NCBI GenBank assembly: GCA_963842525.1
Contig: CAWJGT010000034.1
Span: forward strand, 608,001-672,000
DNA length: 64,000 nucleotides
Direction: 5' to 3'
Source: an uncultured Holophagales bacterium
GTDB taxonomy: Bacteria > Acidobacteriota > Thermoanaerobaculia > Multivoradales > UBA5704
In this document: positions 33,899 to 60,799 of the stretch, in pieces
Numbering within the stretch: the stretch's first letter is position 1
How the letters are laid out: each line of letters starts with the position of its first letter
Notes under the pieces: generated by a model
Seen by the model: the letters and a program-made list of their open reading frames with translations, nothing else
What the model was told of the DNA's origin: nothing
Databases searched by the model: none
Program-made: the position numbers and the translations under genes

Positions 33899-35344
33899 CT
33901 ATCCGCTCGGCTCGAAGAATGCGTGAAACCCTAGGTGCAGCGGCGAATCCAGGCGCAGGGTGGCCCGCGGGCCGGAGGCGAGGTCGAAGGCGTCGAAGAC
34001 CAGGAAGGCGCTCTCGTTCCGGCGGGGATCGAACGACTGGCAGATCACCGCGCCCCCCTCCCCCGCAGGGTCCGGCGCGAAGGCGGGCTCGCCGCCCAGG
34101 TAGATGCCCGGCGGCGCCTGCCAGATGTCCCAACCGCCCGACCAGGAGACGGAGACGACCTGGTCGAAAAACTTGCGCCCGTTGCGGCCGGTCGCCGAGA
34201 TCCCCAGCATCCAGAGGTTCTGGTAGGGGCGACCGAAATGTCGCGGATCGATGGCCGGGAAATCCGGGGCCGAGCGGTAGGCCAGCTCGCGGCGGTCCAC
34301 CACCTCTCCAGCTTGGAGGTCGATGACGAACCGGACCGGGCCTCCGGGGCCAACCGTTATGAAGAGGTCCGGGAGGGTTTCGTACTGATCGTAGATCGGC
34401 CGCTCCAGCTCGACGACGTCCACCACCAGCCGGCCGTCTTCCTCGAAGACATTGATTGTATGGAGGACGTGCCCCTGCCCCACTGGCACGGTGGCGACGA
34501 GCTCGCCGGTCTCGCGCGAGGCGATCAGGAGATAGCTCCCCTGCTCGGGCTCCCAGCGCAGCGACTCCATGAGGGTCCGCCCGTCCCGCGCCAGCGCGGC
34601 CATGTTCAGATAGAGCGGCGAGGCGTGCACCACGATGTGCCGCGGTCCGAGGGCGAAGTCGTGAATGGACGACGGCCCCGCGAGGTCGAGCCGGCGGCGC
34701 CAGACGAGCCGGCCCTCAGGATCGAACCGGTAGAGGTTCACCATGGGGTGCTCGCTGGCGTAGGAGACCCCGAAGTTGAACAGCTCTCCGGTGTGCGGGT
34801 CGATCTTGGGATGGGCAGCGAACGGAGCGATCGGATTGAGGCCGCCGCCAAAATTGAAGGTACCGCGCGTCTCCAGCGTCACCGGGTCGAGCTCGTACGG
34901 GAGCCCCTGCTCGCCCAGGGCCAGCAGCCTGCCGCCGAAGGGATAGACGCTCACGTTGACCGGCGACTCCAGGGCCACGCCGCGCACCAGCCGGTCGCCC
35001 TCGAACCGCGTTCCGAAAGTGCGAAAGAGCGCCCGTCCGGCCTCCTCCTCGGCGGTCCATTTGGAGCTGCGCACGAAGCGGGTGGTGAGGTGCGCACCGC
35101 TATCGTCAAAGCGCAGGGCGCAGACCATGCCGTCGCCGTCCAGCCAGTGGCGATAGCGCAGGCCGCCTCTCTCGAAACGGGCGGGTCCGTTGAGGTAGTA
35201 GGTGCCGCGCACGAAGGCGGGGACCTCGCCTTCGACAGGCACCGGACACGAGCGCTCCGCGGGCACGAAGGCGAAGGCCCGTTCCAATCCCGGAGCGAGG
35301 TCCTCCGCCGGAGGTGCTGCAGGGAGACGCTCGGACACGATCAC
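33899..35344 (-). CDS. Carotenoid/lignostilbene cleavage oxygenase family protein
   Basis: RGTYYLNGP, HWLDGDGM; four His ligands AHPKID, IHDF, LHTIN, GFHAFF; GTGA-coupled. Confidence 0.92.
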   Translation of the reverse strand: MIVSERLPAAPPAEDLAPGLERAFAFVPAERSCPVPVEGEVPAFVRGTYYLNGPARFERGGLRYRHWLDGDGMVCALRFDDSGAHLTTRFVRSSKWTAEEEAGRALFRTFGTRFEGDRLVRGVALESPVNVSVYPFGGRLLALGEQGLPYELDPVTLETRGTFNFGGGLNPIAPFAAHPKIDPHTGELFNFGVSYASEHPMVNLYRFDPEGRLVWRRRLDLAGPSSIHDFALGPRHIVVHASPLYLNMAALARDGRTLMESLRWEPEQGSYLLIASRETGELVATVPVGQGHVLHTINVFEEDGRLVVDVVELERPIYDQYETLPDLFITVGPGGPVRFVIDLQAGEVVDRRELAYRSAPDFPAIDPRHFGRPYQNLWMLGISATGRNGRKFFDQVVSVSWSGGWDIWQAPPGIYLGGEPAFAPDPAGEGGAVICQSFDPRRNESAFLVFDAFDLASGPRATLRLDSPLHLGFHAFFEPSG

Positions 35345-37116
35345 CGGTGGCCTCCTCCGGCCATGGCCTGCACGGTCTCTTCCATCGCGGCGGTACCGCG
35401 GAAGCGGTCGGGCGACATCGGCTCGAAATTCCACTTCCAGGTCCGCTTGGTTTCCCGGCAGGCGGCCATCTGCTCGCGCATGGCCTCGGGATCAAAGGAC
35501 AGGTTTTCCAGGTCGATCGCACCCACGAAGTCGGGATGGGTCAGAGTCCTCGGGTCCTCCAGCACGTTTGCGGCCACGTGAGCATAGATCCAGCGCGCCA
35601 TCTCTTCCAGATTGGTGAGCTGCTGGTCGAGGAGCTGTTTGGCCTCGTCGGCCGAGACGCCGACGCGGTAGAAAAGCTCTCCCGCCTTGCCCAGGGCCCA
35701 GGCCTCGTAGAACTCGAAGAGGACGGGCTCCGGCGGCAGCTCGGTCCGGTTCACCTTCTTCCAGCGGTAGTAGTCGCGCAGGAATTCGTGCAGCTTGCGG
35801 TTGATCGGCCCCAGGCGCGAGAAGCGCCGCAGGAAACCTGGGAGGAATGCGCGGTCGGTGAACAGGTCGTTGATGAATGGGAAGACGAAGAAGCCGAAGT
35901 AGATGGCGAGCTCCCAGACATAGCGCAGCGAGTAGGCCTCCTGGTCGCCCAGGATTTCGTAGCTGATCGCGAAGCTGGGTATGTACGACTCGTAGACCGC
36001 CCGCTCCACGCCTTCGTAGAGGCGGACTTTCTGCTCCAGCTCGCGGCGGTCGCGGGTGAGGATCGCGTCCGTGACCAGCGTGTTGTAGCTGGAGATCAGA
36101 TCGCCGCCCGGGCTGTAGAGCGGATCGGTGAAGCGGCCGGCCTCCCCCACCATGGCCCAGCCGTCGGCCGAAATGGTTTGCGCGCAGTCATGGGCGAAGC
36201 TGTCGAACCCGCCCTTGCCGACGATCGTGCGGTGCGGCAGGTCACGGGCAAACATCGGGTACCGCTTGCAGACCCAGTCGATGCACTGGGCGGGCGTGCG
36301 CACCTCATTGCGGTTGATGAGGTCGGCGTCATAGACCAGGCCGAGGCTGGTGCGGCCGTGCAACGGGATCACCCAGAACCAATACCCTTCGCCGCAAAAG
36401 TGATTGGTTGCGAGCAGGGCCGGCACATGGCCGAGAGCCGCGCGGTCGGGGCGCAGGCGGATCTCGCGCGGCGACAGGTCGGTGAGCCGCTCGATATCGA
36501 CGAGGCCGTCGACCCAGAAGAAGGACGTCCCGTGATGGATCGGGCTCTGCCGCAGCAGGCCGAGCTTCTTGGCCAGGATGCGGCTGCGCCCCGAGGCATC
36601 GACGACCCAGCGCGTGCTGCCGGAGACCTCGCCCGCCTCGCTGCGGAAACGGAAGGTGTGGCGCTCGCCGCCCTTGCCGAGGTCGATCTCCAGGTCGCGG
36701 GCCGGCGCATGGAATTCGAAATTCGGGCTCTGGCGGTTGAGCCGCAGAACCTCGGCTTCGATCTTGTTACGATCGAGCTGATAGGTGACGATGTTGGACA
36801 GGCCGCGGATATAGGACTTGCTGACGTCCTCGTAGCGGTCGCTTCCGAGGCCGCTCGGCCAATAGAAGCGGAGGTTGTACTTCATATAGTGCTCGCAGAG
36901 CAGGTGCTCTTCGAGGTCCAGGACGCGCGCGTAGTAGTAGCCGCTCATCTGGACGGTCGCCTCCCCCACTTTCTGTTCCCTGCGGGGGACATCCGCCCGG
37001 CGGTCGATCATCACGATGCGCAGATCCGGATCGGCGAGCAGGAGTTGGCGGCCGAGGCAGCCCCCGGCGAGGCCCGCGCCCACGATCAGGACGTCACAGT
37101 CGACGTTTCTCTCCAT
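35341..37116 (-). CDS. Flavin-dependent halogenase-family protein
   Basis: GAGLAGG, KVGEAT, MKYNLRFYW, WFWVIPL (WxWxIP), FTDPLYSPG. Confidence 0.8.
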   Translation of the reverse strand: MERNVDCDVLIVGAGLAGGCLGRQLLLADPDLRIVMIDRRADVPRREQKVGEATVQMSGYYYARVLDLEEHLLCEHYMKYNLRFYWPSGLGSDRYEDVSKSYIRGLSNIVTYQLDRNKIEAEVLRLNRQSPNFEFHAPARDLEIDLGKGGERHTFRFRSEAGEVSGSTRWVVDASGRSRILAKKLGLLRQSPIHHGTSFFWVDGLVDIERLTDLSPREIRLRPDRAALGHVPALLATNHFCGEGYWFWVIPLHGRTSLGLVYDADLINRNEVRTPAQCIDWVCKRYPMFARDLPHRTIVGKGGFDSFAHDCAQTISADGWAMVGEAGRFTDPLYSPGGDLISSYNTLVTDAILTRDRRELEQKVRLYEGVERAVYESYIPSFAISYEILGDQEAYSLRYVWELAIYFGFFVFPFINDLFTDRAFLPGFLRRFSRLGPINRKLHEFLRDYYRWKKVNRTELPPEPVLFEFYEAWALGKAGELFYRVGVSADEAKQLLDQQLTNLEEMARWIYAHVAANVLEDPRTLTHPDFVGAIDLENLSFDPEAMREQMAACRETKRTWKWNFEPMSPDRFRGTAAMEETVQAMAGGGHR

Positions 37117-38654
37117 GACTTCTCCACATGCGCCGCCTCCCCGGTGGGAGCGCCGCCTCCTTGAAGGATCGTCTGGGCCACCTGTTGGGCCGAGACGATC
37201 ACGGGGGTGATGCCCCCGCCAGGCCGCGTCCAATGCCCGACGAGGTACAGGTTGGCCAAGGGGCTCATCAGCTCGGGACGCCCGTCGCCGAGCTGCTCGG
37301 GCGACATCTCCCAGCCGAGCATGGCTCCGCGCTGGTTCAGCGTGAAACGCCAGGACGTGTGCGCCGAAGCGCTGGTGCTCACCACGATCCGCTCGGTGAT
37401 CCCGGGGATCATCCGTTCGAGATTGGTGTAGACGAAGCTCTCCGTCTGCCGCTTGTGCTCCGTCCAGTCGGCAACGGCGTCGTAGTCGATGTCCATCACT
37501 TTCTGGACGATCAGGATCTGCCGGCCGGGCGGCGCCATCTCCGGCTCGTAGAGGGTCGGCACGAAGATCTTGAAGCGCAGGGCGTCGCGGCCGACCCGGT
37601 CCATGTCCCAGCCGTCCCAGTAGTAGCCCTGGGCCTCCTCCAGAACGTCGGCAGGCACCCCCTCGAGGCCCAGATGGGTGAGCCAGCACGGGAAGGTGGG
37701 CCGCAGGCGGCGCAGCTCTTCGATCCTCTCGCGCCCGAGATGCCCGGCACCGATCAGCTCCTCGAAGGTCAGCCGCAGGTCGGCGTTCGAGACCACCACG
37801 CCGGAGCGCACCCGCAGCCTCTGGCCGCGGTGCGGGAGCGAGCCGCGGAGGGTCTCGATCTCAACTCCCACCGCCCGGCCATCCTCGACCAGGATGCGGT
37901 GTGCCCGCGTGCTGATCAGCAGGTGCCCCCCGCGTTCCTCGAAGCAGCGGGCCAGGTCGTCGGCGAACGCCTGCGAGCCTCCCTGGGGATAGTAGTTGCC
38001 GAGGAAGTAGGACAACCGCAGCATGGAATCGAAGACGAACGAGGTGCGGCCCGGCGGCGAGCCCCAGTGCGCGCAGTCGGCGGTGAGGAGCAGCTTGAGC
38101 TTGGGATCGCGGAACCAGCGGTCGAGGGCCTGGCGGACAGTGAGGTCGACGTACGGCCGCAGGCGCTCGAGCTGGTTCAGGGGCCGGCCGCGGAAGTAAT
38201 GGAGCAGGCCCAGGAGGTAGCACTCGCGGACCGCGGCGAAGAACGAGTCGAGGGCCGCGGCCTCGTCCGGGAACTCGGCCTTGACCTTGACCAGGTAGTC
38301 GTCGAGATCGGCCGGCACGGCGAAACGCGAGCCGTCCGGGAAGTGGAAGGTGTCCACCGGGTCCATCTTGACCCAGCCGGTGGTGACGCCGATTTCGGCG
38401 AGGAGCCGGCCGGTCAGGGTGTCCGGGTTGCCCAGCAGCGGATAGAAATGGGTCGCGGCGTCGAAGGTGTAGCCGCCGCGGCGGAAGGTGCTGCAATAGC
38501 CGCCCACCATGTAGTGCTGCTCCACCAGCAGGACCCGGAGGCCCCGGCGCGCCAGCAGGTTGGCGGTGATGAGGCCGCCGATGCCGGCACCGATCACGAC
38601 CGCGTCGTAGGTCGGATCGGGCGAGCGGCGCAATCCGCGGAAGGGCCTCTTCAC
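37086..38654 (-). CDS. Phytoene desaturase/CrtISO/RetSat-like FAD oxidoreductase
   Basis: IGAGIGGL...VEQHYMVGGYCSTFRRGGYTFD; YPQGGSQAF; LYLVGHWTRPGGG. Confidence 0.88.
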   Translation of the reverse strand: MKRPFRGLRRSPDPTYDAVVIGAGIGGLITANLLARRGLRVLLVEQHYMVGGYCSTFRRGGYTFDAATHFYPLLGNPDTLTGRLLAEIGVTTGWVKMDPVDTFHFPDGSRFAVPADLDDYLVKVKAEFPDEAAALDSFFAAVRECYLLGLLHYFRGRPLNQLERLRPYVDLTVRQALDRWFRDPKLKLLLTADCAHWGSPPGRTSFVFDSMLRLSYFLGNYYPQGGSQAFADDLARCFEERGGHLLISTRAHRILVEDGRAVGVEIETLRGSLPHRGQRLRVRSGVVVSNADLRLTFEELIGAGHLGRERIEELRRLRPTFPCWLTHLGLEGVPADVLEEAQGYYWDGWDMDRVGRDALRFKIFVPTLYEPEMAPPGRQILIVQKVMDIDYDAVADWTEHKRQTESFVYTNLERMIPGITERIVVSTSASAHTSWRFTLNQRGAMLGWEMSPEQLGDGRPELMSPLANLYLVGHWTRPGGGITPVIVSAQQVAQTILQGGGAPTGEAAHVEKSWRETSTVTS

Positions 38655-40339
38655 GCGGCCTTCCTCCCGTCCTCGGCCGCCTCGTCCGCAAAGACCGAGC
38701 CGCGGAAGATCGAGCGGCGCCGGCGCAGCATCTCCTGGATCGCCTCCTCCATCCGGCCCCGCACCTCGTGGCTGATCTCGTGCACAGTAGCTGGATCATC
38801 CGCCGCTTCGGGCGGGAAGCGGAGCTGGACCGGGATCGGCTCCAGGAACCGTGTATGCCATTTCGAGGGGAGCGGCAGGCCGGGCAGCGGGAAGGTCGGC
38901 GTGATCGGCAGGAACGGCCACTCGGCCACCCGCCGGACCAGCTTCGAATCGACGCGCGCCAGGATCGGGTAGATCTCGGCGCTCCCCACGGTGACGAAGG
39001 GCACGATGGGAGCGCGGTTGCGCAGGGCCATCTTCACGTACTCGTCGCGGCCGAACTTGCCGAGCCGGTAGGCGTCCCGGTACATGGTGAAGGCGCCCTG
39101 GATCCCTTCCGGGAACATGCCCAGCATCCCTTCGCGGGCGAGCACCCAGTCGGCGTTCTCCTGGCAGGCCACGATGCCGCCGAGCTTGATCATGTAGTTG
39201 GCCAGGAACGGGAACTTGACCAGGCAGGGATGGATCAGGAAGCGCGGGATGCGGCCGGTCTCGCGCCGCAGCAGGTGAACGGCCATGACCCCGTCCCACG
39301 GCATGAAGCCACGGTGGACGCCCGTCAGCACCACCCGGCCCTGGCGCGGCACGTTCTCGATCCCGCGGTGCTCGATCCGCCAGTAGGCGTCGTGGAGGAA
39401 GCGGAAGAGGGTGCGCGACCAGGCGGCGATGTACTTCTCGTCCAGGCCGTAGTCGTCGAAGGTGGGGGCCGCGACCGGGGGTCCGTCCTTCTGTCCGAAC
39501 GCCTCCAGGACGGCCTCGGCGCTGGTCTTCGCGGGGACGAAGCCGAGCTCGCGCTCGATCTTGCGGCCCGAGACGGTCCAGGAGTGGCGCAGGTATTCGA
39601 GCTGCGCACCGGCCCAGCGCGGGCCGGCGAGACGCCGTGTCCCGGCGAGGCGCAGGGCGCCGCGGACCGTGACGGTCCCGGCCGGCGCCACGTGGTAGAC
39701 GCCCGGCTTCCCCGCTCCGCGTTCCACGGCGCAGGCCACGGCCGAGTCGAGATCGCCGGGGGCGAGGAGCTGCAGGGACGGATCGAAGCCGGCCGGCACG
39801 AACGCGGTCCGCCCGCGCAGCAGGCGCGAGAAGAAATTCTCGCCGTCGCGCGTCACGACCGGTGCCGGGCGGAGGATCAGGAGCTCCGCACCCAGCCCGG
39901 CACACCGCGACTCCGCCAGGGTCTCCAGCTCGCGCCAGGCGCGGGCGATCGGATTCTCTCCCCGCGGCTTCTGCGTCTCGGGCAGATAGCCCTGGTTGTG
40001 ATGGCTCGGGTCGTGGACCAGCGAGCTCGACAGCAGGACGACCCTGGGGGCCTGGAGAGACGCGAAGACAGCCGCGGCGTCGGCGAGGTCCGGCCGCATG
40101 CCGTCCTTGATGAGAGGCGGTCGGTAGAGGAAGACCTCACCCCCTGGCCCCCTCTCCCATCTCCCACCCGCCCGGCCCCGGGAGAGGGGGGACGCAGTTG
40201 GTGCACCTGAGGCGAGGTCGGAGCCCAGCGGCTCGAAATCTTCTGACATCGGACTCGCCGCGGAATTCCCAGCTACGTCCCCCCTCTCCCGGCGGGGGGT
40301 GGAAGGGAGATGGGAGAGGGGGACAGGGGGTGAGGTCAT
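38651..40339 (-). CDS. Degenerate SDR/epimerase-like domain fused to a PlsC-type acyltransferase; N-terminus encoded by a REP doublet
   Basis: GAGGAGG RBS; VVLLSSS, LILRPAPV; VHRGFMPWD, MFPEG, PIVPFVTVG. Confidence 0.82.
   Translation of the reverse strand: MTSPPVPLSHLPSTPRRERGDVAGNSAASPMSEDFEPLGSDLASGAPTASPLSRGRAGGRWERGPGGEVFLYRPPLIKDGMRPDLADAAAVFASLQAPRVVLLSSSLVHDPSHHNQGYLPETQKPRGENPIARAWRELETLAESRCAGLGAELLILRPAPVVTRDGENFFSRLLRGRTAFVPAGFDPSLQLLAPGDLDSAVACAVERGAGKPGVYHVAPAGTVTVRGALRLAGTRRLAGPRWAGAQLEYLRHSWTVSGRKIERELGFVPAKTSAEAVLEAFGQKDGPPVAAPTFDDYGLDEKYIAAWSRTLFRFLHDAYWRIEHRGIENVPRQGRVVLTGVHRGFMPWDGVMAVHLLRRETGRIPRFLIHPCLVKFPFLANYMIKLGGIVACQENADWVLAREGMLGMFPEGIQGAFTMYRDAYRLGKFGRDEYVKMALRNRAPIVPFVTVGSAEIYPILARVDSKLVRRVAEWPFLPITPTFPLPGLPLPSKWHTRFLEPIPVQLRFPPEAADDPATVHEISHEVRGRMEEAIQEMLRRRRSIFRGSVFADEAAEDGRKAA
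40133..40337. repeat. REP doublet inside the 5' end of a CDS
   Basis: GACCTCACCCCCTG...CAGGGGGTGAGGTC terminal inverted repeat, same family as 27427. Confidence 0.85.
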
Positions 40340-42826: not shown

Positions 42827-44038
42827 GCAGCCTCGCTCCGCCGGAAGATCACCGAGGCGTTATTGCCGCCGAAGGCGTAGGCGTTGTTCATCGCCACCCG
42901 CACGTCATGCTCGCGGGCCGCGTTGGGGACGTAGTCGAGGTCCTCCTCGGGCTCCTCGAGGTTCATGGTCGGCGGGATGCGGCCGGTCGCGACCGCCAGC
43001 GAGCAGACGAACGCCTCGATGGCCGAGGCGGCTCCCATGGTGTGGCCGATCATCGACTTGACCGAGCTCATCGGCGTGCGGCAGCCGGAGCCGAAGACGC
43101 GGAGCACCGCCACGGTCTCCAGGCGGTCGTTGGTCGGCGTGCCCGTGCCATGGGCGCTGATGTAGTCGACGTCCGTGGGAGCCAGCCCGGCGTCGGACAG
43201 CGCGCGCTGCATGGCCCGCGCCGCACCGTCGCCCTCGGGGTGGGCCGCGGTCATGTGATGGGCGTCGCAGGAGAGGCCGTAGCCGGCCACCTCTGCATAG
43301 ACGCGGGCGCCGCGGGCCCGTGCCCGGTCGAGCGGCTCCAGGACCAGGACGCCCGCTCCTTCGCCCGGGATCATGCCTTTGCGGTTGCGGTCGAACGGCT
43401 GGCAGGTCTCGGGCGCGATGGCGCCGAGGCGGGCGAAACCGGCGTAGGTGATGCGCGAAAAAGCGTCGGCGCCGCCGGCGAGCATCACGTCCGCCCGTCC
43501 CGAGCGCAGCACGTCCAGGGCGTGGGCAATGGCGTAGTTGCCTGCCGCGCAGGCGGTCGGGATCATGGTGTTGACGCCGCCGAAACCGAGCTCCCGCGCC
43601 ACGTGCGCGGCAATCATGTGGCATGGATAGAGGCCGATGAACTCGCCGCCCACCTGATCGATCTCGCCGGCAAGGAAGCGGTCGTTGAAGCGCTCGACCT
43701 CGCGCGGCTCGCCCGAGGTCGTGCCCATGGCCACCCCCGCCCGCCGGGGGTTCAGTCTCTCCACGCCGAGGCCGGCGTCCTCCACGGCCTGCCGGGCGGC
43801 GGCGATGGCGAGCTGCGAGGCGCGGCCGAGCCGGTCCGGGTCGAGCCGGCGTACCGAGGGGCGCGGATCGAAGCCGCGCACCTCGGCGCCGAGGTGGACG
43901 CTGAACTTGGCGGTGTTCGAACGACTCGACCGGCGCGAAACCGCTCTTGCCGGCGAGAAGGTTCGCCCACGCCTCCTCACGCCCTGCGCCGACCGGAGTC
44001 ACGACGCCGAGGCCGGTCACGGCCACCCGGACCGTCAT
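42823..44038 (-). CDS. Beta-ketoacyl-ACP synthase (FabF-like KS); frameshift near 43920
   Basis: VAVTGLGVVTPVG; TACAAG, AHGTGT, KSMIGHTMGA, AFGGNN. Confidence 0.92.

Positions 44039-44941: not shown

Positions 44942-44945
<4 letters not shown>
44454..44945 (-). CDS. SnoaL-like ester cyclase
   Basis: MSQKAIARRFREDLWNSGDL...IIAEADMVVVRW...LGLPPTGR...DGKIVEGW. Confidence 0.88.
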
Positions 44946-52907: not shown

Positions 52908-54767
52908 TTCCTGCCCTCTCCCTCGCGCAGCGTAGTGATCCGGTCCAAGGGCACGTTCGAACCTCTCGACGAGGCCGCTCGGCCAGCGGACCTCCAGGGA
53001 TTCGATCTTCTGGACAGGTCCCAGCCCGAAGCACAGGCGCCGCGTGCTCTGGCTGGCGTAGCCGTTGCCGCCGTTGACCTCGCGGATCCAGGACTGGCCG
53101 CCGGAGCGGACCGTGACGCGGGCGCCCACGGCGTCGCGGTTCGACTTCGTGCCCACGAGCTTCAGCTCGATCCAGCGGCCGGCGCCCGGAGAGACGTTGC
53201 GATAGAGCATGGACTTCTGATTGGCGTTCGTCTGATAGAGGTCGAGCCGGCCGTCGTTGTCCAGGTCGGCCATACCGATGCCGCGGCCGTCGAGGTCGTT
53301 GTCGACCCCCGCCTCGGCCGCGACCTCCTTGAACGACTGGTCGCCCAGGTTGCGGAACAGCTTCTTCTTCTGGAAGCCGCTCCAGCTCATGCCGCCAATG
53401 GCGGGCCAGTTGCGGACGTCGGTGAAGTCGATCTTCGGCGTGATGATCATCTCGAGCAGGACCGGTATGTAGTTCTCCTTGCCGGCCGAGCGCAGGCCGT
53501 CGACGGCGAAGAGGTCCTCCCAGCCGTCGTTGTCGAAGTCGCCGAATTTGGCGGCCCAACCCCAGAGCGTGTTGCACGTCCCGGTCTCCTTCGAGAGGTC
53601 GGTGAACGTGCGGTCGCCGTTGTTGTGCCACAGCATGTTGCACTCTTTCATGTACTCGTCGGTGATGTTCGTCACATAGACGTCGAGCCAGCCGTCGCGG
53701 TCGTAGTCGCCCACGTCGGCGTTCATCCCCTTGCGCGTGTCGAAGCCGATCGCCGTCTTGGTGGCGTCGTGGAAGGTGCCGTCACGGTTGTTGAAGAAGA
53801 GGCGGTCGGTCCCGTAGTCGCCGGCCAGGTAGAGGTCCTGCCAACCGTCGTTGTCGAGGTCCGCGTGGCCGGCGTCGAGCGTCCAGCCGGTGTGGTGCGC
53901 GAGCCCGGCCTTCTGGGTGACCTCGACGAAGCGGATCTGCTGCGACCCGGGCTCGGTGAGGTTTCTCCAGAGCGTGACGCCGCCGCCGTTGTCGGCTTCG
54001 TCGAGATTGTTGGGCAGCACGTGCGGGGTCGGGAGATCGATCAGGTTGACCGGCGGAAAGTAGTTGCCGAGCAGCAGGTCGAGGCGGCCGTCGTTGTCGT
54101 AGTCGAAGGCGAGGACGGCAATTGTGTTGCCGAACTTGTCGAGGCCCGAGCCGGCCGAGACGTCCTTGAGCTTGCCGCCACCCTGGTTGCGATAGAGGAC
54201 CGGTGTGCCGAAGCGGGCCACCAGGAGGTCCTGCCAGCCGTCATTATCGGCGTCGAGCCAGACCGCATCGGCGACGATCGATTTCGGGTCGTTGCCGCCG
54301 GTCACGCCCGCGGCGGCGGCCACATCGGCGAAGGCGAGGCGGCCCGAGGGGACCAGCTCGTTGCGCAGGAGATGGTTGGCGATGCCGGCGTCGGACTGGG
54401 CGACGAAGAGGTCCTCGTCGCCGTCGTTGTCGTAGTCGCCCACGGCCACCGCCGCGCCGCCGGCCGTGAACATGCCGAGGACGTCGCCGTGCTTGCCCGC
54501 GAACTTGCGGGTATGGTGGACCAGGCGCGCTCCCGCCGCCTCGCCGATCTCCTCGAAACGGATCGGCGGCGCGCCACCCTGCGCCGCGGCCAGCGGCAGG
54601 GCGAGCAGGAGCAGCGCGAGGAGGCCCCTCACCCCCGGCCCCTCTCCCATCCGCCCTCCCGATCCCCCGGGAGAGGGGAGCGAAGAGCTCCCGTGCCTTC
54701 TTCCCCCCTCTCCCTCAGGGCGGGAGGGCGGTTGGGAGAGGGGGGCCAGGGGGGTGAGGGGCCTCAC
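52904..54767 (-). CDS. CRTAC1-family FG-GAP + ASPIC/UnbV protein; frameshift near 52955
   Basis: FG-GAP repeats; SNRDAVGA; WPSG; the natural end VPLDRITTLREGEGRK* lies in another frame. Confidence 0.82.
54621..54765. repeat. REP doublet inside the 5' end of a CDS
   Basis: GAGGCCCCTCACCCCC...GGGGGTGAGGGGCCTC 16-bp terminal inverted repeat. Confidence 0.85.
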
Positions 54768-55483
54768 TTCGCCGGCCCCTCCTCATAAAGCGCGGCGAGA
54801 TTCGTATCGACCCGCTTGTTGGGATCGAGCTGGTCGTTGATGTACGTCTCCAGCTCTTCGCCGCTGCGCGCCAGGCGCGCTTCGAGCTGCGTCTCGCCGG
54901 GGAAGAGCTTCAGCCCCTCCTGCCAGATCGCCTTGGCCTTCTCGGGCTGGTCCGTCTTCCAGTAGCCGTCACCCAGCGCGATGTAGGCCCGCGCGTAGAC
55001 ACGCTTCTGGATGTTTTCCTTTTTGGAGATGGCGACCGCCTCCTCGAGGTCGGCGACGCCCAGTGGGGCACGGCCGAAGACCCTGGGCCAGTACAGGTAA
55101 CTGTTACCGCGCGTGAACAGGGCCAGCCAGGTGTGCTTCAGATCGATCGACTTGCTGAACTGGGTCAGCGCGTTGTTGGCGAGGATCACCTGGGTGATCG
55201 AGCCGGCCGCCGGGATTTTGTCGACATAGGCATAGCCGAAGTTCAGCCAGGCGTTGGCTGACTGCGGGTGCTTCTCCACCAGCTTCTCGTAGAAGTCGAT
55301 GGCGCGGTCATATTCCTTGGCCTTGATGACCGCCATCCGGTACTCGCTATGGCCCCGCAGATGATCGGGGTCGGCGTTGATCGCCGCCTCGAGCTGCGGC
55401 AGGGGCGCCGCATCGTTGCCGGCAGCCTGGACCGCGGCGGCGGCCAGGAGCATGAGCGCGGACAAAGCCAGTGGGCGTCTCAT
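54764..55483 (-). CDS. Secreted TPR protein
   Basis: Signal peptide; AWLNFGYAY and AYIALGDGYW TPR motifs. Confidence 0.85.
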   Translation of the reverse strand: MRRPLALSALMLLAAAAVQAAGNDAAPLPQLEAAINADPDHLRGHSEYRMAVIKAKEYDRAIDFYEKLVEKHPQSANAWLNFGYAYVDKIPAAGSITQVILANNALTQFSKSIDLKHTWLALFTRGNSYLYWPRVFGRAPLGVADLEEAVAISKKENIQKRVYARAYIALGDGYWKTDQPEKAKAIWQEGLKLFPGETQLEARLARSGEELETYINDQLDPNKRVDTNLAALYEEGPAK

Positions 55484-57264
55484 TTCTTCTTGCGCTCCTC
55501 GTCTGCGTGCGCAGCGGTGGCGAACGGAAAGGATTTCGCCTCTCCCTCGACGATGCGGGTGATCCGGTCCACGGGCAGGTCCTCGAAGACCTGGCGCAGC
55601 CCGGAGGGCCAGAGCACCTCCAGGCGCTCGATCGTCGTGGCCTGTCCGAGCCCGAAATGGACGCGGCGCGAGCTCTGGGCGGCGAAGCCGTTGCCGCCGT
55701 CGACGAAGCGCAGCAGCGTCCGTCCGCCGGCCGTCAGGCGCAACTGGGCCCCGATCCCTTCGCGGTTCGATTTCTTCCCCTGGAGAGCAAAGGCGGCCCA
55801 GTGCGCGGGCGGCGCGATGTTCGCGATATTGCGATAAAGGAACGGCTCGGCATTGGCGTTGGCGACGAACAGGTCGAGGCGGCCGTCGTTGTCGAAGTCG
55901 GCCACCGCGATGCCGCGGCCGTCGCGCTGCGAGTCGAGGCCGTGCCGCGGTGCCTCGTCCTTGAAGATCTGCCCGCCCTGGTTGTGGAACAGCCTCTTCT
56001 TCTGGTAGCCGGAGAGGGTCCTGTCGCCCATGGGCGGCCAGTTGCGCGCGTCCGAAAAGTCGATGTTCGGCCGCACGACCATCTCGAAGATCAGCGGTAC
56101 ATAGCTCTCGGGGCCCGCGGACACCCAGCCGTTGACCACGTAGAGGTCGAGCCAGCCGTCGTTGTCGTAATCGAAGAATTTGCCGCCCCAGCCCCAGCCG
56201 GTGTCGTACACCCCGGTCTCGCGCGCTATGTCGGTGAACTTCACCTCGCCGGGCCCGCTGGCTCCATCATTGCGCCAGAAAAAATTTCCCTCGCGCATGT
56301 AGTCGTCGGTGATGTTCGTCACGAAGATGTCGAGCCAGCCGTCGTTGTCGTAGTCGCCCCACTCGGCATTCATGCCCTTTTTCGTATCGATCCCGATCGC
56401 CTCTTTGGTGCGATCCGTAAACGTCCCGTTCCCATTGTTCAAGAAAAAGCGATCGGTCCCGAAGTCGCACGCCACGTAGAGGTCGTCGTCGCCGTCGTTG
56501 TCGGCGTCGCCGTGCCCCAGGTCCAGGGTCCAGCCGGAGAGGGTGAGGCCGGCCTCGCGGGTGACATCCCGAAACGTACCATCCCCTTGATTGCGCCAGA
56601 GCGTCACGCCGCCGCCGTTGTTGGCGGTTTCAAAGCTCTCTGGAAAGAAGCGCGGCGTATCGGGCTTGAAGACGTTCACCGCCCGGAAATAGCTGCCGAC
56701 GAAAAGGTCGATCCGGCCGTCGCGGTCGTAATCGAAGGCCACGGCCGTGATGGCGTTGCTGTAGCGGTCGAGCCCGGCGCGGCGGGTGACGTCGCGGAAC
56801 CGGCCGTTGCCCAGGTTCTCGAAGAGCTGGTTGTGGCCGAAGCGGACGACCAACAGGTCGGGCCGGCCGTTGCCGTCATAGTCGAGCCAAAGGGCGTCGG
56901 CCGAGGCGTTGCCGGCGTCGTTGCCGGCGGCCAGTCCGGCCGGTCCGGCGACCTCCGTGAAGGTAAGGTCGCCATTGTTGCGCCAGAGCAGGTTCTTGCC
57001 CGTCGCGGAGGAATCGGTCACGAAGAGATCCTCGAATCCGTCGCCGTCGTAGTCGGCCACGGCCGCCGCGGCACCCAATGCGGTGTAGCCGGCCATGATC
57101 TCGGCATAGGGGTTCTCGAACGTACGATTCGTGTGCTTGCGCGCGACCCCGGCCTTCGCCGTCACGTCCTCGAACCATCGGTCAGCAACCGGAGGCGCAG
57201 GGGCGGCCGCAATCCACAGGGCTCCAGCCACGAACACGGCTGCCCGAGCCAAGCCGACCCTCAT
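55480..57264 (-). CDS. CRTAC1-family FG-GAP + ASPIC/UnbV protein
   Basis: ATGA-coupled; DYDNDG repeats; SNREGIGA...HFGLG...WPSG. Confidence 0.9.
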   Translation of the reverse strand: MRVGLARAAVFVAGALWIAAAPAPPVADRWFEDVTAKAGVARKHTNRTFENPYAEIMAGYTALGAAAAVADYDGDGFEDLFVTDSSATGKNLLWRNNGDLTFTEVAGPAGLAAGNDAGNASADALWLDYDGNGRPDLLVVRFGHNQLFENLGNGRFRDVTRRAGLDRYSNAITAVAFDYDRDGRIDLFVGSYFRAVNVFKPDTPRFFPESFETANNGGGVTLWRNQGDGTFRDVTREAGLTLSGWTLDLGHGDADNDGDDDLYVACDFGTDRFFLNNGNGTFTDRTKEAIGIDTKKGMNAEWGDYDNDGWLDIFVTNITDDYMREGNFFWRNDGASGPGEVKFTDIARETGVYDTGWGWGGKFFDYDNDGWLDLYVVNGWVSAGPESYVPLIFEMVVRPNIDFSDARNWPPMGDRTLSGYQKKRLFHNQGGQIFKDEAPRHGLDSQRDGRGIAVADFDNDGRLDLFVANANAEPFLYRNIANIAPPAHWAAFALQGKKSNREGIGAQLRLTAGGRTLLRFVDGGNGFAAQSSRRVHFGLGQATTIERLEVLWPSGLRQVFEDLPVDRITRIVEGEAKSFPFATAAHADEERKKK

Positions 57265-59642
57265 TCCCTCCTCGCTCCGTAGCGCCTCTCGACGAGGTCC
57301 TGGCCCTCGGTGACCTGAACGATGTGGTCCGCCGCGACGTTGCGGAACCGCTGCACCGTGCCGGAGGCGGGCCACTTGACCTCGATCTCGTCGACCTTCC
57401 CTGCACCGCCGAGGCCGAAGTGGAGACGCAGCGAGCTCTGCGACCCGTAGCCGTCGCCGAGCACCACCTCACGGGTCTGCTGCTGTCCGGCGGTCCGGAC
57501 CGTCGCCCGCGCACCCACGGCGTCGCGGTTCGAGCGCGTGCCCACCAGCTCGACCTGCAGCCAGTGCCTCCGGGGCCCGACCTCGTTGCGCAGGAGCGCA
57601 TGACGGTCGGTCGAGGCGGACACGGCGATGTCGAGCGCGCCGCGGTTCCAGAAGTCAGCGACCGCGGTGCCACGGCTGTTGGTCAAGAGGTCCGTGCCGG
57701 CCGGCGTGCCGATCTCGCGGAAGGTGATCCGTCCCGATGCATCAGGCCCGTTGTTGCGCAGGTGGCGGTTGCGCTCCCAGCCGTGCCATGACTGCCGGCC
57801 AAAATGTTTGGGATCGAAAAAGATGCCGGTTTTATAATCGCTCTGCCGCCCGACGACGTTGTTCAGGAACTCCAGCTCGATCTCGGTGCCGCGGTCGTTG
57901 TAGACCCAGCCGTTGGCGCTGTAGATGTCCTGCCAGCCGTCGTTGTCGAAGTCCGCGAAATTGGAGCCCCAGAACCAGCCGAGCGGATTGGCGCCGCTCT
58001 CCCAGGACACGTCCTCGAAGGTGCCGTCCCCCCGGTTGCGCAACAGGTGATTGCCGGAAGCCATCTCCTGGAAAACCTTGACGAATTCGAAGCCCGACTG
58101 GCGGAAGATCTGGAAATAGAGCGGCATGTCGCTCTTCCACACCCCTTGCTTCCACGAATTGGCCATGTAGCGCCAGACCGTCGGCGGCTCGGCGAACCAG
58201 CCGTGCTCGGAGCGGATGTCCGCCGTGTAGATATCGAGCCGCCCGTCGTTGTCGTAGTCGCCGAACGAGGCGCTCATACCGGCGCCATAGGCCAGCGTGC
58301 CGCTGTCGACCGTCACATCGGCGAACGTCCCGTCTCCCTCGTTGCGGTAGAGCGTGGCGCGGCCAAAGTCGTTGACCACATAAAGGTCGGGGTCGCCGTC
58401 GTCGTCGTAGTCGCCGAAGACCGTGCCCAGGCAGAGGCCCGTGTCCCCCACTCCGGCTTCCTCGGTCACGTTGGTGAACTTGCCTCCCCCTTCGTTCCGG
58501 TAGAGCTGATTGGGCTCACCGTTGCGCGCATAGAAGGTGGTTGGAATGACCTTACGCGGGTCGAGGTAGCGCCCGACGTAGAGGTCCAGATCGCCGTCGT
58601 TGTCGTAGTCCGCCCAGGAGGCCACCGTGGTGACGGAGTCCTCGCCGAGGCCGGACCCCGCGGTCACATCGCGGAAGCGTCCCCGGTCATTGTGGAAGAG
58701 CTGGTTGGGCCGAAAGGTGCGGCTCACGAAGAGGTCCTTCCAGCCGTCGTTGTCATAGTCGGCGAAGGTGCCCACCGAGACGCCGTCGAGCCCCGCGAGC
58801 CCCCACGCCTCGGTGACGTCCTCGAACCGGCCGTCTCCCGCTTTGCCTCCAACATTGCGGAACATGCGCGAGGAGACCCCGTCAGGGATGAAGAGGTCGT
58901 GGAGCCCGTCGTTGTCCACGTCGGCCGCGGCGATGCCGCCCGGGCCATAGCGGATCATGCCGAAGCGGAGCGGCTCGGTGAGGAACGCCGGATAGTAGCG
59001 GTTGGTGAAGCCCACGCCCGCCTGCGCGGCGATGTTCACGAACTGCGGCGGCCCGCTCACCTCGCGCTCGCCCTCGACGAGGGAGGCCTCGCGGATGCGC
59101 ACCCCTTCGGGAGTCTGTTCCAGGCGCATGCGGAACAGGGCGCGGTCGATGCCAGGCCGGACAGCGCCCCGCGGAGTGCCGATCAGCTCCAAGCGGACGA
59201 TCGCCTCGAGCTCGTCCCCCTTCCACGTGGGAAGCCGGTGGAGGTGGACCCCGGCCTCCTGGATCGTGTCGAGGCCGGCGAGGTAGGCCTGCCATTCGGC
59301 GAGCGCGGCGGCGCGGTCGGTGGCGCCATCTCCGGCCGTGAAGCGGAGCGTCTCGATCCCGTCGCGCAAGTCGATCCGCCGCAGGCTCGCGAGGCCGAGG
59401 GGGCGGCCCTGGAATCCGGGGCTGTAGAAGCCCTCGATCGCCTCCAGGTCGCGCGTCTGGACAGCCTGGCCGAGCCGGCCCAGGGTCTCGACCACGCCGC
59501 GGCCGGTCTGGAAGAACCGCTGCCCTTCACGGTCCATTCGATCGAACGAAAGCCAGGTGCCGCTGACCAACAGGACCGGGGCAAGGACCAGACCGAAGAG
59601 GAGCGTCGTACGTCGTCGTGGCAGAAGAGTCTTTAGAGGCAC
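57261..59642 (-). CDS. CRTAC1-family FG-GAP + ASPIC/UnbV protein with an extra N-terminal (NTF2-like?) domain
   Basis: N-terminal TM; ~170-aa extra domain; FG-GAP repeats; SNRDAVGA...HFGLG. Confidence 0.88.
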   Translation of the reverse strand: MPLKTLLPRRRTTLLFGLVLAPVLLVSGTWLSFDRMDREGQRFFQTGRGVVETLGRLGQAVQTRDLEAIEGFYSPGFQGRPLGLASLRRIDLRDGIETLRFTAGDGATDRAAALAEWQAYLAGLDTIQEAGVHLHRLPTWKGDELEAIVRLELIGTPRGAVRPGIDRALFRMRLEQTPEGVRIREASLVEGEREVSGPPQFVNIAAQAGVGFTNRYYPAFLTEPLRFGMIRYGPGGIAAADVDNDGLHDLFIPDGVSSRMFRNVGGKAGDGRFEDVTEAWGLAGLDGVSVGTFADYDNDGWKDLFVSRTFRPNQLFHNDRGRFRDVTAGSGLGEDSVTTVASWADYDNDGDLDLYVGRYLDPRKVIPTTFYARNGEPNQLYRNEGGGKFTNVTEEAGVGDTGLCLGTVFGDYDDDGDPDLYVVNDFGRATLYRNEGDGTFADVTVDSGTLAYGAGMSASFGDYDNDGRLDIYTADIRSEHGWFAEPPTVWRYMANSWKQGVWKSDMPLYFQIFRQSGFEFVKVFQEMASGNHLLRNRGDGTFEDVSWESGANPLGWFWGSNFADFDNDGWQDIYSANGWVYNDRGTEIELEFLNNVVGRQSDYKTGIFFDPKHFGRQSWHGWERNRHLRNNGPDASGRITFREIGTPAGTDLLTNSRGTAVADFWNRGALDIAVSASTDRHALLRNEVGPRRHWLQVELVGTRSNRDAVGARATVRTAGQQQTREVVLGDGYGSQSSLRLHFGLGGAGKVDEIEVKWPASGTVQRFRNVAADHIVQVTEGQDLVERRYGARRE

Positions 59643-59788
59643 GGTAAATCGACTTTTAACGAGAGCTGAGCCACTCTAGAACAAGCCTCTGCTCAGGAAA
59701 ACCGGCATCGGGGACCAAAAAGGGTCTAAACCCCTTGGCGTCCACGCCACAGGGTACGATACGACCCGCTTCCGAGAGGAGGACTGCA

Positions 59789-60799
59789 ATGAGCACCGAC
59801 GAAAACCTCCGGTACGCGGCGGCGGCCTGCCAGGTCGATTTCGGCAACCCGGCGGACCGTGCAGGGATCAAGCCGCACGTGGACCGGATGCTGGCTATGA
59901 TCGACAACGCGGTGGGCGGCTACGCGCCGTTCCTGCCGGTGAAGCTGGTCGTTTTTCCCGAGTTCGCCCATGCCGCGCCAGTCTACCCCACCGCCCGCGA
60001 GCTGCTGGACAAGCTGGCCGTCCCGATCCCCAACGAGCACACGGAGCGCTATATCTCCAAGGCTCGTGAGCACGGCATCTGGATCCAGACCGGCACGTTC
60101 CTGGAAGCCGACGAAAAGTATCCGGGCGTGGTCTTCAACGCCACCTGCCTGATCGGTCCGGAGGGAATCCTCACCAAGTTCCGCAAGGTGAATCCGTGGA
60201 TCCCCTGGGAGGTCCATGCCAGCCCGCACGACCTGCCGGGCTACGAGGAGGAGATGTTCCCGGTGGCGCGCACCCCGATCGGCAACCTGGGGGTGGCGAT
60301 CTGCTACGACTGGCTCTTCCCGGAGGCGCTGCGCCAGCTCACCGCCAACGGCGCCGAGGTCCTGATCCGCGTCTCCGCCTACATGGACCCCTGGGGAGCC
60401 ACGGCACCGATGGACTGGTGGACCGTGGTCAACCGCTGCCGGGCCCTCGAGAACATCGCCTACGTGGTGGCTTCGAACCAGGCGGCGAGCCTCTCGCATT
60501 ACCCGCCGTTCTCCTGGCCGGGCGGCAGCATGGTGGTGGACTTCGAGGGGCGCATCCTCGCCCAGGCCGATCCCGGTCCGGGCGAGAAGATCGTCGTGGC
60601 ACCGGTGGACATCGGAGCCCTCCGTCACGAGAGGTCCGTCCGGCGCGGCCATCAGACCCTGGGGCATCTGCGCAGCGAGTGCTATCCCATGTACCGGCAG
60701 AGCTTCTACCCGCCGGGCCGGGGGGTGGACCGGGAGAAGCTCAGCGTGGAGGGGAACGATGAGGCGACAACAGAGGCGAAGAGGAAGCTGGGGTACTGA
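59789..60799 (+). CDS. Nitrilase/carbon-nitrogen hydrolase
   Basis: GAGGAGG RBS; triad FPEF, FRKVN, ICYDW. Confidence 0.92.
   Translation: MSTDENLRYAAAACQVDFGNPADRAGIKPHVDRMLAMIDNAVGGYAPFLPVKLVVFPEFAHAAPVYPTARELLDKLAVPIPNEHTERYISKAREHGIWIQTGTFLEADEKYPGVVFNATCLIGPEGILTKFRKVNPWIPWEVHASPHDLPGYEEEMFPVARTPIGNLGVAICYDWLFPEALRQLTANGAEVLIRVSAYMDPWGATAPMDWWTVVNRCRALENIAYVVASNQAASLSHYPPFSWPGGSMVVDFEGRILAQADPGPGEKIVVAPVDIGALRHERSVRRGHQTLGHLRSECYPMYRQSFYPPGRGVDREKLSVEGNDEATTEAKRKLGY

What the first reader, a model, noticed from the sequence alone, without database searches (positions are those of the whole stretch)
33899..60799. Unclassified biosynthetic system: KS/CLF/ACP and carotenoid-type tailoring enzymes joined to a secreted ASPIC-UnbV/pentaheme assembly
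Seen: 16 co-oriented genes, most coupled by ATGA/GTGA overlaps, with one ~145-bp gap before the ACP. Upstream half: five FG-GAP/ASPIC-UnbV proteins, a TPR protein, a membrane pentaheme cytochrome and a SnoaL cyclase. Downstream half: ACP, active KS, Cys-to-Glu CLF, HMGR, SDR-acyltransferase, desaturase-like enzyme, halogenase, carotenoid oxygenase. Known: UnbV is an uncharacterised member of enediyne clusters, and KS/CLF pairs build polyenes in type II PKSs. I see no phytoene synthase, prenyltransferase, FabG or FabZ. Inference: the product is a fatty-acid/polyketide-derived, possibly halogenated and oxidatively cleaved lipid that is handled by an extracytoplasmic Ca-binding propeller/cytochrome complex. 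I know of no characterised cluster with this make-up.
Basis: partly seen in the sequence, partly recalled or inferred. Interest (0 to 1): 0.82.

Follow-up and report, generated by a model that had tools for sequence, protein, structure and literature searches.

The report
Acidobacterial halolipid pathway with secreted propellers
This is a real, conserved and apparently undescribed lipid-building gene system of uncultured Acidobacteriota that joins a chain-building enzyme pair related to those of anammox 'ladderane' bacteria to a halogenating enzyme and a set of secreted proteins whose relatives are unexplained parts of enediyne antibiotic gene clusters.

Summary
Observation confirmed, with corrections. 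Sixteen minus-strand genes lie at 33899-59642; the nitrilase to 60799 is divergent. Four genes are interrupted in this assembly, and the CLF Glu is not conserved. The halves are one system. Marker orthologs occur in 15 of 401 sampled Acidobacteriota genomes. TPR, CCO and KS orthologs are each in 13 of 14 marker-positive genomes and 0 of 15 controls. Cytoplasmic genes lie within 10 kb of the TPR gene in 35 of 80 loci, in many orders. The cytochrome/A5/nitrilase part is separable. The KS/CLF belongs to the ladderane/ishigamide-type clade (nearest solved pair matches anammox amxFabF). The CrtI-like enzyme resembles anammox PDH, but FabZ and the B12 radical SAM enzyme are missing. The HMGR has lost HMG-binding residues, like the acyl-thioester reductase FcrA. 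New here: accessory genes, 460 kb away in this genome, encode remote DUF1702 homologs (HHalign 93%), so the system carries both DUF1702-like and UnbV-type proteins, as enediyne cassettes do. Most likely product: a halogenated, unsaturated acyl/alkyl lipid processed at the envelope. No product is known. The scan noted parts of this system on other genomes before.

The parts
57261..59642 (-). A1: N-terminal membrane anchor, ~170-aa domain without Pfam hit, FG-GAP propeller, ASPIC-UnbV
   Evidence: ortholog in 13 of 401 genomes
55480..57264 (-). A2: FG-GAP/ASPIC-UnbV protein with hydrophobic N-terminus (likely secreted); core
   Evidence: only PDB relative human CRTAC1 9ETN, 5e-19; in 65 of 80 TPR loci
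54764..55483 (-). TPR protein with hydrophobic N-terminus, marker of the system; fused to A2 and A3 in G005
52904..54767 (-). A3: FG-GAP/ASPIC-UnbV protein; changes frame near 52955-52975, natural TGA at 52904-52906
   Evidence: in 75 of 80 TPR loci
49533..52907 (-). A4: TPR + FG-GAP + ASPIC + ~450-aa C-terminal region holding a CBM32/discoidin-like jelly roll
   Evidence: pLDDT 83.5; Z about 10, rmsd about 3.0-3.1, 120-135 aligned
52736..52864 (.). REP-like palindromic repeat inside the 5' end of A4
   Evidence: 89 BLASTN hits of the linker in the genome
46665..49536 (-). Membrane-anchored pentaheme c cytochrome + TPR; frameshift ~48957, in-frame TAG 47085-47087; optional module
44942..46657 (-). 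A5: FG-GAP/ASPIC-UnbV protein, usual partner of the cytochrome
44454..44945 (-). SnoaL/NTF2-like protein
   Evidence: PF07366 6.6e-29; in 12 of 80 TPR loci
44310..44453 (.). 144-bp gap between the halves; no sigma-70 promoter or terminator consensus found
44035..44309 (-). ACP (frameshifted ~44190-44208)
   Evidence: orthologs PF00550
42823..44038 (-). Active KS (Cys-His-His), ladderane/ishigamide-type clade; frameshift ~43917
41576..42826 (-). CLF-like inactive KS
40353..41570 (-). HMGR-fold reductase with catalytic residues kept and HMG-binding residues replaced (FcrA-like)
38651..40339 (-). PlsC/DGAT2-type acyltransferase with unassigned N-terminal half
   Evidence: PF01553 1e-8, PF03982 1.5e-6
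37086..38654 (-). CrtI-superfamily FAD oxidoreductase, 32-33% to anammox PDH over full length
35341..37116 (-). Flavin-dependent halogenase-like enzyme (GxGxxG, WxWxIP-type motif, conserved Lys)
   Evidence: (PF04820 21.5 bits vs cut-off 21)
33899..35344 (-). Carotenoid-cleavage oxygenase family, four Fe-ligand His conserved; nearest solved relative an apocarotenoid-15,15'-oxygenase
59735..60799 (+). Divergent C-N hydrolase (Glu-Lys-Cys), conserved partner, also found with cytochrome/A5 outside the core

Best explanation
A dedicated pathway for an unusual envelope lipid, in two compartments. Cytoplasm: a ladderane/ishigamide-type KS/CLF pair extends an ACP-bound acyl chain, with reduction and dehydration borrowed from primary fatty-acid synthesis or a clustered SDR (inferred). 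The PDH-like flavoenzyme adds or isomerises double bonds. The flavin halogenase halogenates the chain. The FcrA-like HMGR reduces the thioester to a fatty alcohol, and the acyltransferase esterifies it or loads a chain onto a lipid. The CCO cleaves a conjugated double bond, either to mature or to turn over the product. Outside the inner membrane: A1-A2-TPR-A3(-A4) form a Ca-binding propeller assembly that binds or further converts the lipid. Two optional modules attach: cytochrome-A5-nitrilase (redox) and ABC1 kinases plus DUF1702-like proteins. Shown: gene content, co-occurrence, linkage, clade placement, active-site patterns. Inferred: every reaction, their order, the complex, and the product.
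For: Co-occurrence: top-tier orthologs of HAL, A1 and HMGR each occur in 13 of 401 genomes, union 15. TPR, CCO and KS orthologs are each in 13 of 14 marker-positive genomes and 0 of 15 controls. Linkage: a cytoplasmic gene lies within 10 kb of TPR in 35 of 80 loci and in 22 of 39 loci of 20 kb or more. Orders differ, e.g. A4-ACP-KS-CLF, A3-SnoaL-HAL-CCO, CRTI-AT-TPR, CCO-A1. Fusions: A2-TPR-A3 in G005, A2-TPR in G331. KS: best solved match 9S5H chain B (4e-126), next ishigamide KS 6KXD (6e-94). CLF: best match 9S5H chain C. HMGR keeps E559/K691/D767/H866 but changes R590, D690, K692 and K735 across the 24 aligned rows, with Phe at L862 in 20 of 24; this is the pattern described for FcrA. The genome has a separate canonical HMGR in a mevalonate operon. 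Halogenase motifs are conserved in at least 80% of 25 rows, the Lys in at least 95%.
Against: No product, expression or biochemical data exist. No dehydratase or FabZ was found in any system locus inspected, so a polyene is not shown; KS/CLF pairs also make saturated chains. The halogenase is weakly matched (21.5 bits, best PDB 2e-7), and the same fold includes non-halogenating enzymes (LodB/GoxB). In 17 of 39 long loci no cytoplasmic gene lies within 10 kb of TPR. G385 has A1-A2-TPR-A3 and CCO, but KS, HAL and HMGR were not found. G266 and G365 gave no A1 at E<=1e-90. Five of the 14 positives are one family, so the counts are not independent. Four genes are interrupted in this genome, which may be a decaying copy.
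Confidence: 0.55

Rival explanations
1. Type II counterpart of the enediyne core cassette: KS/CLF makes a polyene, and the UnbV-type propellers with DUF1702-like proteins (and halide chemistry) oxidise it to a halogenated polyyne-like lipid. The cytochrome stands in for the RnfD-like UnbU protein as electron sink.
For: A Streptomyces enediyne-type cassette reads DUF1702, DUF1702, CRTAC1, RnfD-like, type I PKS, TE. The system's helical accessory family aligns to DUF1702 at HHalign probability 93.0, E 3.3e-7, 192 columns; 10 control families scored at most 0.3 and 20 reversed or shuffled alignments at most 1.4. That family is in 9 of 15 system genomes and 1 of 386 others. It lies beside TPR, HMGR or AT-ACP genes in several loci. 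A Serratia plasmid couples type II KS/ACP genes to DUF1702-UnbV-RnfD.
Against: The DUF1702-like family was not found in 6 of 15 system genomes, and the cytochrome ortholog not in 7 of 14. Identity to DUF1702 is 17%, and Pfam PF08012 misses it. No RnfD-like gene lay at the known system loci in 5 genomes searched. A2 is only about 31% identical to the Streptomyces CRTAC1, no closer than to generic CRTAC1 proteins. The role of E3/E4/E5 in making the diiodotetrayne is recalled; I saw only that paper's title.
Confidence: 0.17
2. Scavenging or turnover system: the secreted propellers capture an outside polyene or carotenoid-like lipid, CCO cleaves it, and the reductase and acyltransferase store the pieces as esters.
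For: CCO's nearest solved relative is an apocarotenoid oxygenase. CCO often sits directly beside A1. G385 keeps the propellers and CCO without a detected KS. ABC1 kinases, ArsA ATPases and START proteins in relatives suggest lipid trafficking.
Against: The dedicated ACP-KS-CLF is in 13 of 14 system genomes and is translationally coupled to the rest. A halogenase fits synthesis better than uptake. No TonB-dependent receptor recurs among the neighbours clustered from 80 loci.
Confidence: 0.1
3. Isoprenoid/retinoid pathway: HMGR feeds mevalonate, the CrtI-like enzyme desaturates phytoene, CCO yields retinal, and the acyltransferase makes retinyl-type esters.
For: The enzyme families match retinoid logic. 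The genome has a mevalonate pathway and a squalene/phytoene synthase.
Against: HMG-binding residues are replaced. The CrtI-like protein is below all NCBIfam carotenoid cut-offs, scores only 8e-20 to CrtI, and forms its own clade. The reading leaves ACP-KS-CLF and the halogenase unexplained.
Confidence: 0.06
4. Ladderane-type (cyclobutane) lipid synthesis outside anammox bacteria.
For: KS 52-54%, CLF 33-34% and CrtI-like 32-33% identical to anammox Cluster I proteins, with the same ACP..KS-CLF..PDH order.
Against: No B12 radical SAM enzyme or FabZ is in the window cluster or among recurrent neighbours. The KS sits in an unresolved three-way split with anammox and Streptomyces KS. The CrtI-like protein is not the exclusive sister of PDH. 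Cluster I itself is unproven for ladderanes.
Confidence: 0.04
5. Chance neighbourhood of two independent modules in this genome.
For: A 144-bp gap separates the halves. In G176, G266 and G365 the halves lie at separate loci. The cytochrome-A5-nitrilase unit does occur alone.
Against: Interleaved gene orders in different classes and the near-matching phylogenetic profiles. An independent contig of a relative (about 90% alike, run X3) also spans KS-ACP to SnoaL-A5.
Confidence: 0.04

Closest known systems
Anammox putative ladderane 'Cluster I' (amxACP, amxFabZ, amxFabF2/amxFabFmut, PDH, B12 radical SAM; bioRxiv 10.64898/2026.05.19.726425, PMC10139942)
   Same: ACP, KS/CLF-type pair and phytoene-dehydrogenase-like gene in like order. 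KS 52-54% and PDH 32-33% identical. Best solved matches of KS and CLF are the two chains of 9S5H, whose residue numbers fit B. fulgida amxFabF2 with a +5 offset (my inference).
   Different: No FabZ or radical SAM. Adds reductase, acyltransferase, halogenase, CCO and secreted propellers. The trees do not show exclusive sisterhood.
Highly reducing type II PKS (ishigamide Iga11/12, PDB 6KXD; Streptomyces and Bacillus KS/CLF-NRPS clusters, loci L198-L200)
   Same: KS in the same supported clade; 6KXD is the top Foldseek match of the G365 KS model.
   Different: Those loci carry FabG, dehydratase and NRPS genes. Here there is no dehydratase or NRPS, and release is probably reductive.
FcrA, HMGR-derived fatty acyl-CoA reductase (PMC11948995)
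   Same: Class I HMGR fold, catalytic E559/K691/D767/H866 kept, HMG pocket changed, mostly bulky residue at L862; PlsC-like neighbours are mentioned in that paper.
   Different: No Lad domain; Phe rather than Trp at 862 and no Glu at 684. Only 44% identical to the Lad-bearing paralog in the same genome. Coupled to an ACP/KS/CLF operon.
Enediyne PKS cassette (DUF1702, UnbV/CRTAC1, RnfD-like UnbU, PKSE, TE)
   Same: UnbV-type propellers plus remote DUF1702 homologs beside a chain-building synthase.
   Different: Type II rather than iterative type I. Five propellers and a TPR rather than one. No linked RnfD-like gene found. DUF1702-like genes are optional and often distant.
Aryl polyene/xanthomonadin-type clusters
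   Same: KS/CLF, ACP, acyltransferase and FAD halogenase-like genes; second-tier HAL homologs (about 31%) sit in such-looking loci. The family description is recalled.
   Different: Their KS fall outside the system's clade. The window lacks the AMP-ligase, dehydratases, glycosyltransferases and exporter I recall for these clusters.

Membership tests
Anammox ladderane Cluster I | amxFabF2/amxFabFmut-type KS/CLF pair | tested here: met
   same broad clade but not exclusive sister
Anammox ladderane Cluster I | Phytoene-dehydrogenase homolog (PDH) next to the pair | tested here: inconclusive
   32-33% full length, ranks 24-43 of 139 just behind true orthologs, but smallest supported set holding both has 67 rows
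Anammox ladderane Cluster I | Clustered FabZ and B12-dependent radical SAM enzyme | tested here: not met
   Absent from the window cluster and from recurrent neighbours of 80 loci; present in L194-L196
Highly reducing type II PKS | Active KS (Cys-His-His) plus inactive CLF plus discrete ACP | tested here: met
Highly reducing type II PKS | Clustered KR and dehydratase | tested here: not met
   None in the window; SDR only in some relatives; no FabZ-type gene seen
Highly reducing type II PKS | Polyene product | not testable with these tools
   needs expression and LC-MS
HMG-CoA reductase (mevalonate pathway) | HMG-binding R590, S684, D690, K692, K735 | tested here: not met
   below TIGR00533 cut-off, 331 vs 442 bits
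FcrA fatty acyl-CoA reductase | Catalytic tetrad kept, HMG pocket altered, bulky residue at L862 | tested here: met
   Phe in 20 of 24, Leu in 4; paper passages
FcrA fatty acyl-CoA reductase | Placement in the FcrA clade; activity on acyl-CoA | not tested
   no tree with characterised FcrA built; no Lad domain (PF25653 only in the paralog)
Flavin-dependent halogenase | GxGxxG, WxWxIP-type motif, catalytic Lys | tested here: met
   conserved across 25 rows; all 9 PDB hits are halogenases. Lys equivalence to PrnA K79 is recalled
Flavin-dependent halogenase | Halide incorporation | not testable with these tools
   needs assay
Carotenoid cleavage oxygenase | RPE65 fold with four His Fe ligands | tested here: met
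   PF03055 2e-100; below named NCBIfam equivalog cut-offs
Enediyne PKS cassette | Iterative type I PKSE plus thioesterase | tested here: not met
   type II genes only
Enediyne PKS cassette | UnbV/ASPIC protein | tested here: met
   five PF07593 domains; about 31% to a Streptomyces cassette CRTAC1
Enediyne PKS cassette | DUF1702 protein | tested here: inconclusive
   remote homolog by HHalign 93%, not by Pfam; in 9 of 15 system genomes
Enediyne PKS cassette | Linked RnfD-like UnbU | tested here: not met
   PF03116 hits in 5 of 5 genomes searched, none at the known system loci

The most novel reading that the evidence does not exclude
A new class of bacterial lipid system in which an anammox-related type II KS/CLF-PDH core feeds a secreted multi-propeller UnbV complex and remote DUF1702 proteins. 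It would do enediyne-cassette-like oxidative or halogen chemistry (halo-polyyne or other strained unsaturated lipid) at the cell envelope, giving the first tractable non-enediyne model for UnbV/DUF1702 function and a proxy for anammox PDH.
Probability: 0.2. Interest if true: 0.9.

Novelty: new variant of a known kind. Interest (0 to 1): 0.7.

Why it matters
Acidobacteriota are abundant, mostly uncultured soil bacteria whose specialised lipids are poorly known. This system occurs in about 4% of sampled genomes (15 of 401) and in 166 confirmed GTDB loci, across several classes. It places three long-unexplained protein groups in one pathway: bacterial ASPIC-UnbV/CRTAC1 propellers, DUF1702-like proteins and anammox-type PDH. 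A product structure would give each a testable function and would add an ACP-coupled HMGR-fold reductase and a new halogenase subfamily.

Tried and rejected
Literature: nine full-text searches listed no paper describing this cluster. The library lacks most subscription journals and bioRxiv supplements were closed, so this is not proof of absence. The diiodotetrayne paper was not held. MIBiG and antiSMASH were not available. Complex prediction for A2 with TPR was not available, so the complex is untested. A Foldseek search of the A4 C-terminal model gave nothing clear; VIA found only a jelly-roll subdomain, and the rest of that region is barely tested. ESM Atlas gave only hypothetical-protein clusters for A4. 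The Foldseek library did not list 9S5H, so its identity rests on residue numbering. Rhodopsin search in the own genome found none, but the control also rang nowhere, so it is uninformative. No RNA holder was listed, which is no evidence on expression. Laid contigs were relatives, not the strain, so the frameshifts could not be called errors; relatives do lack one base at 48957-48958. No promoter or terminator consensus was found in the gap. Rejected: CLF Glu as a decarboxylase signature (not conserved); A3-A4 as a true fusion; the cytochrome as a core part; the recalled CylC/CylK cryptic-halogenation analogy (no test possible). The first HHalign test with 3 DUF1702 rows gave only 17-26%; the 93% result came after deepening both alignments. 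The KS tree is the quick IQ-TREE result, as the careful search did not finish; the CrtI tree is FastTree.

Full report
OBSERVATION. The window is part of a 9.95-Mb, 34-contig genome (G000). Its closest TPR relatives are labelled Thermoanaerobaculia/Acidobacteriota. ORF listing, translation and family scans confirm 16 minus-strand genes from 59642 to 33899. Junctions: nine direct 4-nt ATGA/GTGA overlaps, a tenth at A3/A4, three short gaps (5, 7 and 13 nt), one 31-nt overlap and the 144-nt gap before the ACP. The nitrilase-family gene at 59735-60799 is on the opposite strand. A3, CYT, ACP and KS are interrupted in this assembly; the orthologs used for comparison are intact. The genome's FabZ is also split, so assembly indels are likely but unproven.

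ONE SYSTEM OR TWO. In an even sample of 401 genomes of the phylum, the halogenase had matches in 39, with a clear top tier (45-62% identity, full length) in 13 including G000. A1 matched 13 at E<=1e-90. The HMGR matched 33, top tier (>=55%) 13. The three sets unite to 15 genomes. I then searched 29 handles: the 14 other marker-positive genomes and 15 hand-picked controls (near relatives and holders of second-tier homologs). Ortholog-level TPR, CCO and KS were each in 13 of 14 versus 0 of 15; one control had a distant TPR and two had distant CCOs. Nitrilase was in 12 of 14 versus 2 of 15, the close cytochrome in 7 of 14 versus 3 of 15, and an ABC1 kinase in 8 of 14 versus 0 of 15. Kin are not independent: five positives share a family.

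A GTDB scan with the TPR alignment gave 200 pattern matches, 166 confirmed, best 80 kept. Their titles include Thermoanaerobaculia, Bryobacteraceae, Ca. Angelobacter and Vicinamibacterales, plus single Zixibacteriota, Methylomirabilota and Chitinophagales bins. This set may overlap the handle sample. A3, A2, A1 and A4 flank TPR in 75, 65, 57 and 56 of 80. At least one of KS, CLF, HMGR, AT, CrtI-like, HAL or CCO lies within the 10-kb flanks in 35 of 80, and in 22 of 39 loci of 20 kb or more. Orders are shuffled. G005 fuses A2-TPR-A3. Against this: G385 lacks a detected KS, HAL and HMGR, and in G176, G266 and G365 the halves are at separate loci. The cytochrome-A5-A4-like-nitrilase unit occurs without the core in G238, and cytochrome-A5-A4-like-nitrilase fragments in G086. 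So the core is A1-A2-TPR-A3(-A4) plus the cytoplasmic kit, with cytochrome-A5 optional.

ENZYMES. KS and CLF have their best solved matches in chains B and C of PDB 9S5H. Cys170, His303, His340, Ser301, Phe208, Met342 and Glu349 of chain B fit Cys165, His298, His335, Ser296, Phe203, Met337 and Glu344 of B. fulgida amxFabF2 in bioRxiv 10.64898/2026.05.19.726425; one listed residue, Ile112, did not fit. I read parts 1, 3 and 4 of 6 and search passages. Its supplements were closed and the main text does not name the entry, so the identity is inferred. A motif scan retrieved four metagenome loci. Three show ACP-FabZ-KS-CLF-PDH-B12 radical SAM, and the PDH's relatives are named Brocadia, Jettenia, Kuenenia and Scalindua. 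Window identities to these: KS 52-54%, CLF 33-34%, CrtI-like 32-33%. In a 51-row quick tree (about half of the system rows kept), system KSs form their own clade (98) in an open split with anammox and Streptomyces KSs (94). In a 139-row tree the CrtI-like proteins form their own clade (100); anammox PDHs score right behind them but are not their exclusive sister. The system is therefore a cousin of Cluster I, not a member. PMC10139942 (passages) stresses that Cluster I itself lacks experimental proof. PMC7298704 (passages) notes that soil 'ladderane' clusters have unknown functions.

The HMGR keeps the catalytic residues but alters the HMG pocket across 24 rows, matching the logic of FcrA, which reduces fatty acyl-CoA to alcohol and not HMG-CoA (PMC11948995, passages). 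G000 also has a canonical HMGR in a mevalonate operon and a Lad-domain FcrA-type paralog, so this third copy is dedicated. I had noted the residue changes myself; the FcrA paper came as a lead from earlier finding e1-4907526. The halogenase keeps its three motifs, but database scores are weak. The CCO keeps four His and is nearest an apocarotenoid oxygenase.

SECRETED PART AND THE DUF1702 LINK. The five propellers carry paralog-specific invariant loops. A1, A2, TPR, A3, A5 and CYT have hydrophobic N-termini. The only solved relative of A2 is human CRTAC1. A4 ends in a confidently modelled region holding a CBM32-like jelly roll. Relatives carry ABC1 kinases, ArsA ATPases, START proteins and Pfam-less helical proteins inside the clusters. 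In G000 these lie at C34:172-192 kb, with a broken second copy beside an AT paralog on C2. An ESM Atlas lead (score 0.76, DUF1702 in 12% of members) prompted a profile test: 15 rows of this family plus a query row, against 8 DUF1702 rows, gave probability 93.0, E 3.3e-7, with all 30 controls at or below 1.4. The family is in 10 of 401 genomes, 9 of them system genomes, and lies next to AT-ACP in G176. An enediyne-type cassette on a Streptomyces plasmid reads DUF1702 x2, CRTAC1, RnfD-like, PKS, TE. TnmE4 is called a conserved core enediyne protein in PMC10760148 (passage). Equating E3/E4/E5 with DUF1702/UnbV/UnbU, and their role in diiodotetrayne formation, is recalled. PMC8725005 (passages) confirms only the heptaene precursor and unknown accessory enzymes. 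PMC3174227 (passages) only lists ASPIC/UnbV paralogs in Solibacter.

MECHANISM AND VERDICT. Most likely (0.55) the kit builds, desaturates, halogenates, reductively releases and esterifies an acyl chain, CCO trims or recycles it, and the propeller assembly receives it at the envelope. All chemical steps are inferred from family knowledge. The enediyne-like reading (0.17-0.2) is the boldest that the evidence allows. The system is a new variant of type II acyl-chain biosynthesis with an architecture I could not find in print in the searches named. Earlier notes of this scan saw the cytochrome-propeller pair, the KS-HAL-CCO cassette and the HMGR separately on other genomes. What this locus adds is all parts in one operon, the core/optional split and the DUF1702-like link. 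Interest 0.7.

Noticed in passing
L162:844-12622 (Serratia proteamaculans plasmid NZ_MT039191.1): Type II-style ACP, KS, SDR and FAD oxidoreductase genes clustered with DUF1702, a VCBS/UnbV protein and an RnfD-like gene: an enediyne-like cassette on a non-type-I synthase.
   Followed up: partly
G365:C3:1088715-1092465: DUF1702 and RnfD-like hits within 3 kb, possibly a separate enediyne-type cassette in an acidobacterium.
   Followed up: no
L164:10577-12082 (G000:C34, ~485.6-487.1 kb): Lad-domain FcrA-type reductase near an ABC1 kinase, patatin, phasin and PHB regulator genes; likely storage-lipid locus.
   Followed up: partly
L168:2789-12869 (G000:C9): Mevalonate operon (HMGR, MVK, MVD, probable IPK and IDI-2, polyprenyl synthase) with a squalene/phytoene synthase.
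   Followed up: partly
L166:873-15091 (G000:C34:172-192 kb): Accessory block: three DUF1702-like proteins, two ABC1 kinases, a 1196-aa and a 434-aa protein without clear Pfam family, both recurring near system loci.
   Followed up: partly
L211-L212 (G198:C20): DUF1702-like and ABC1 genes with ACP-like and AMP-ligase-like neighbours in a genome lacking the core markers.
   Followed up: partly
L179:7068-9584 and L055 (G331): Distant A2-TPR fusion, and a separate ACP-KS-CLF-halogenase locus with AMP-ligase and CrtI-like genes; possibly a remote version of the system.
   Followed up: partly
window 44402-44451: A relative's contig (run X3) has 959 extra letters between SnoaL and ACP, perhaps another gene.
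   Followed up: no
window 52736-52864: REP-like palindrome with many genome copies inserted in frame at the start of A4.
   Followed up: partly
window 31618-33303 and 60824-63440: HNH-NB-ARC-DUF7779 protein, and a Ser/Thr kinase with a beta-propeller part read in two overlapping frames; both look frameshifted.
   Followed up: no
L070:108-1031, L180:3492-4412: Class IV aminotransferase directly downstream of AT-CrtI-like in two related genomes; with the nitrilase, a possible hint of nitrogen in the product.
   Followed up: no
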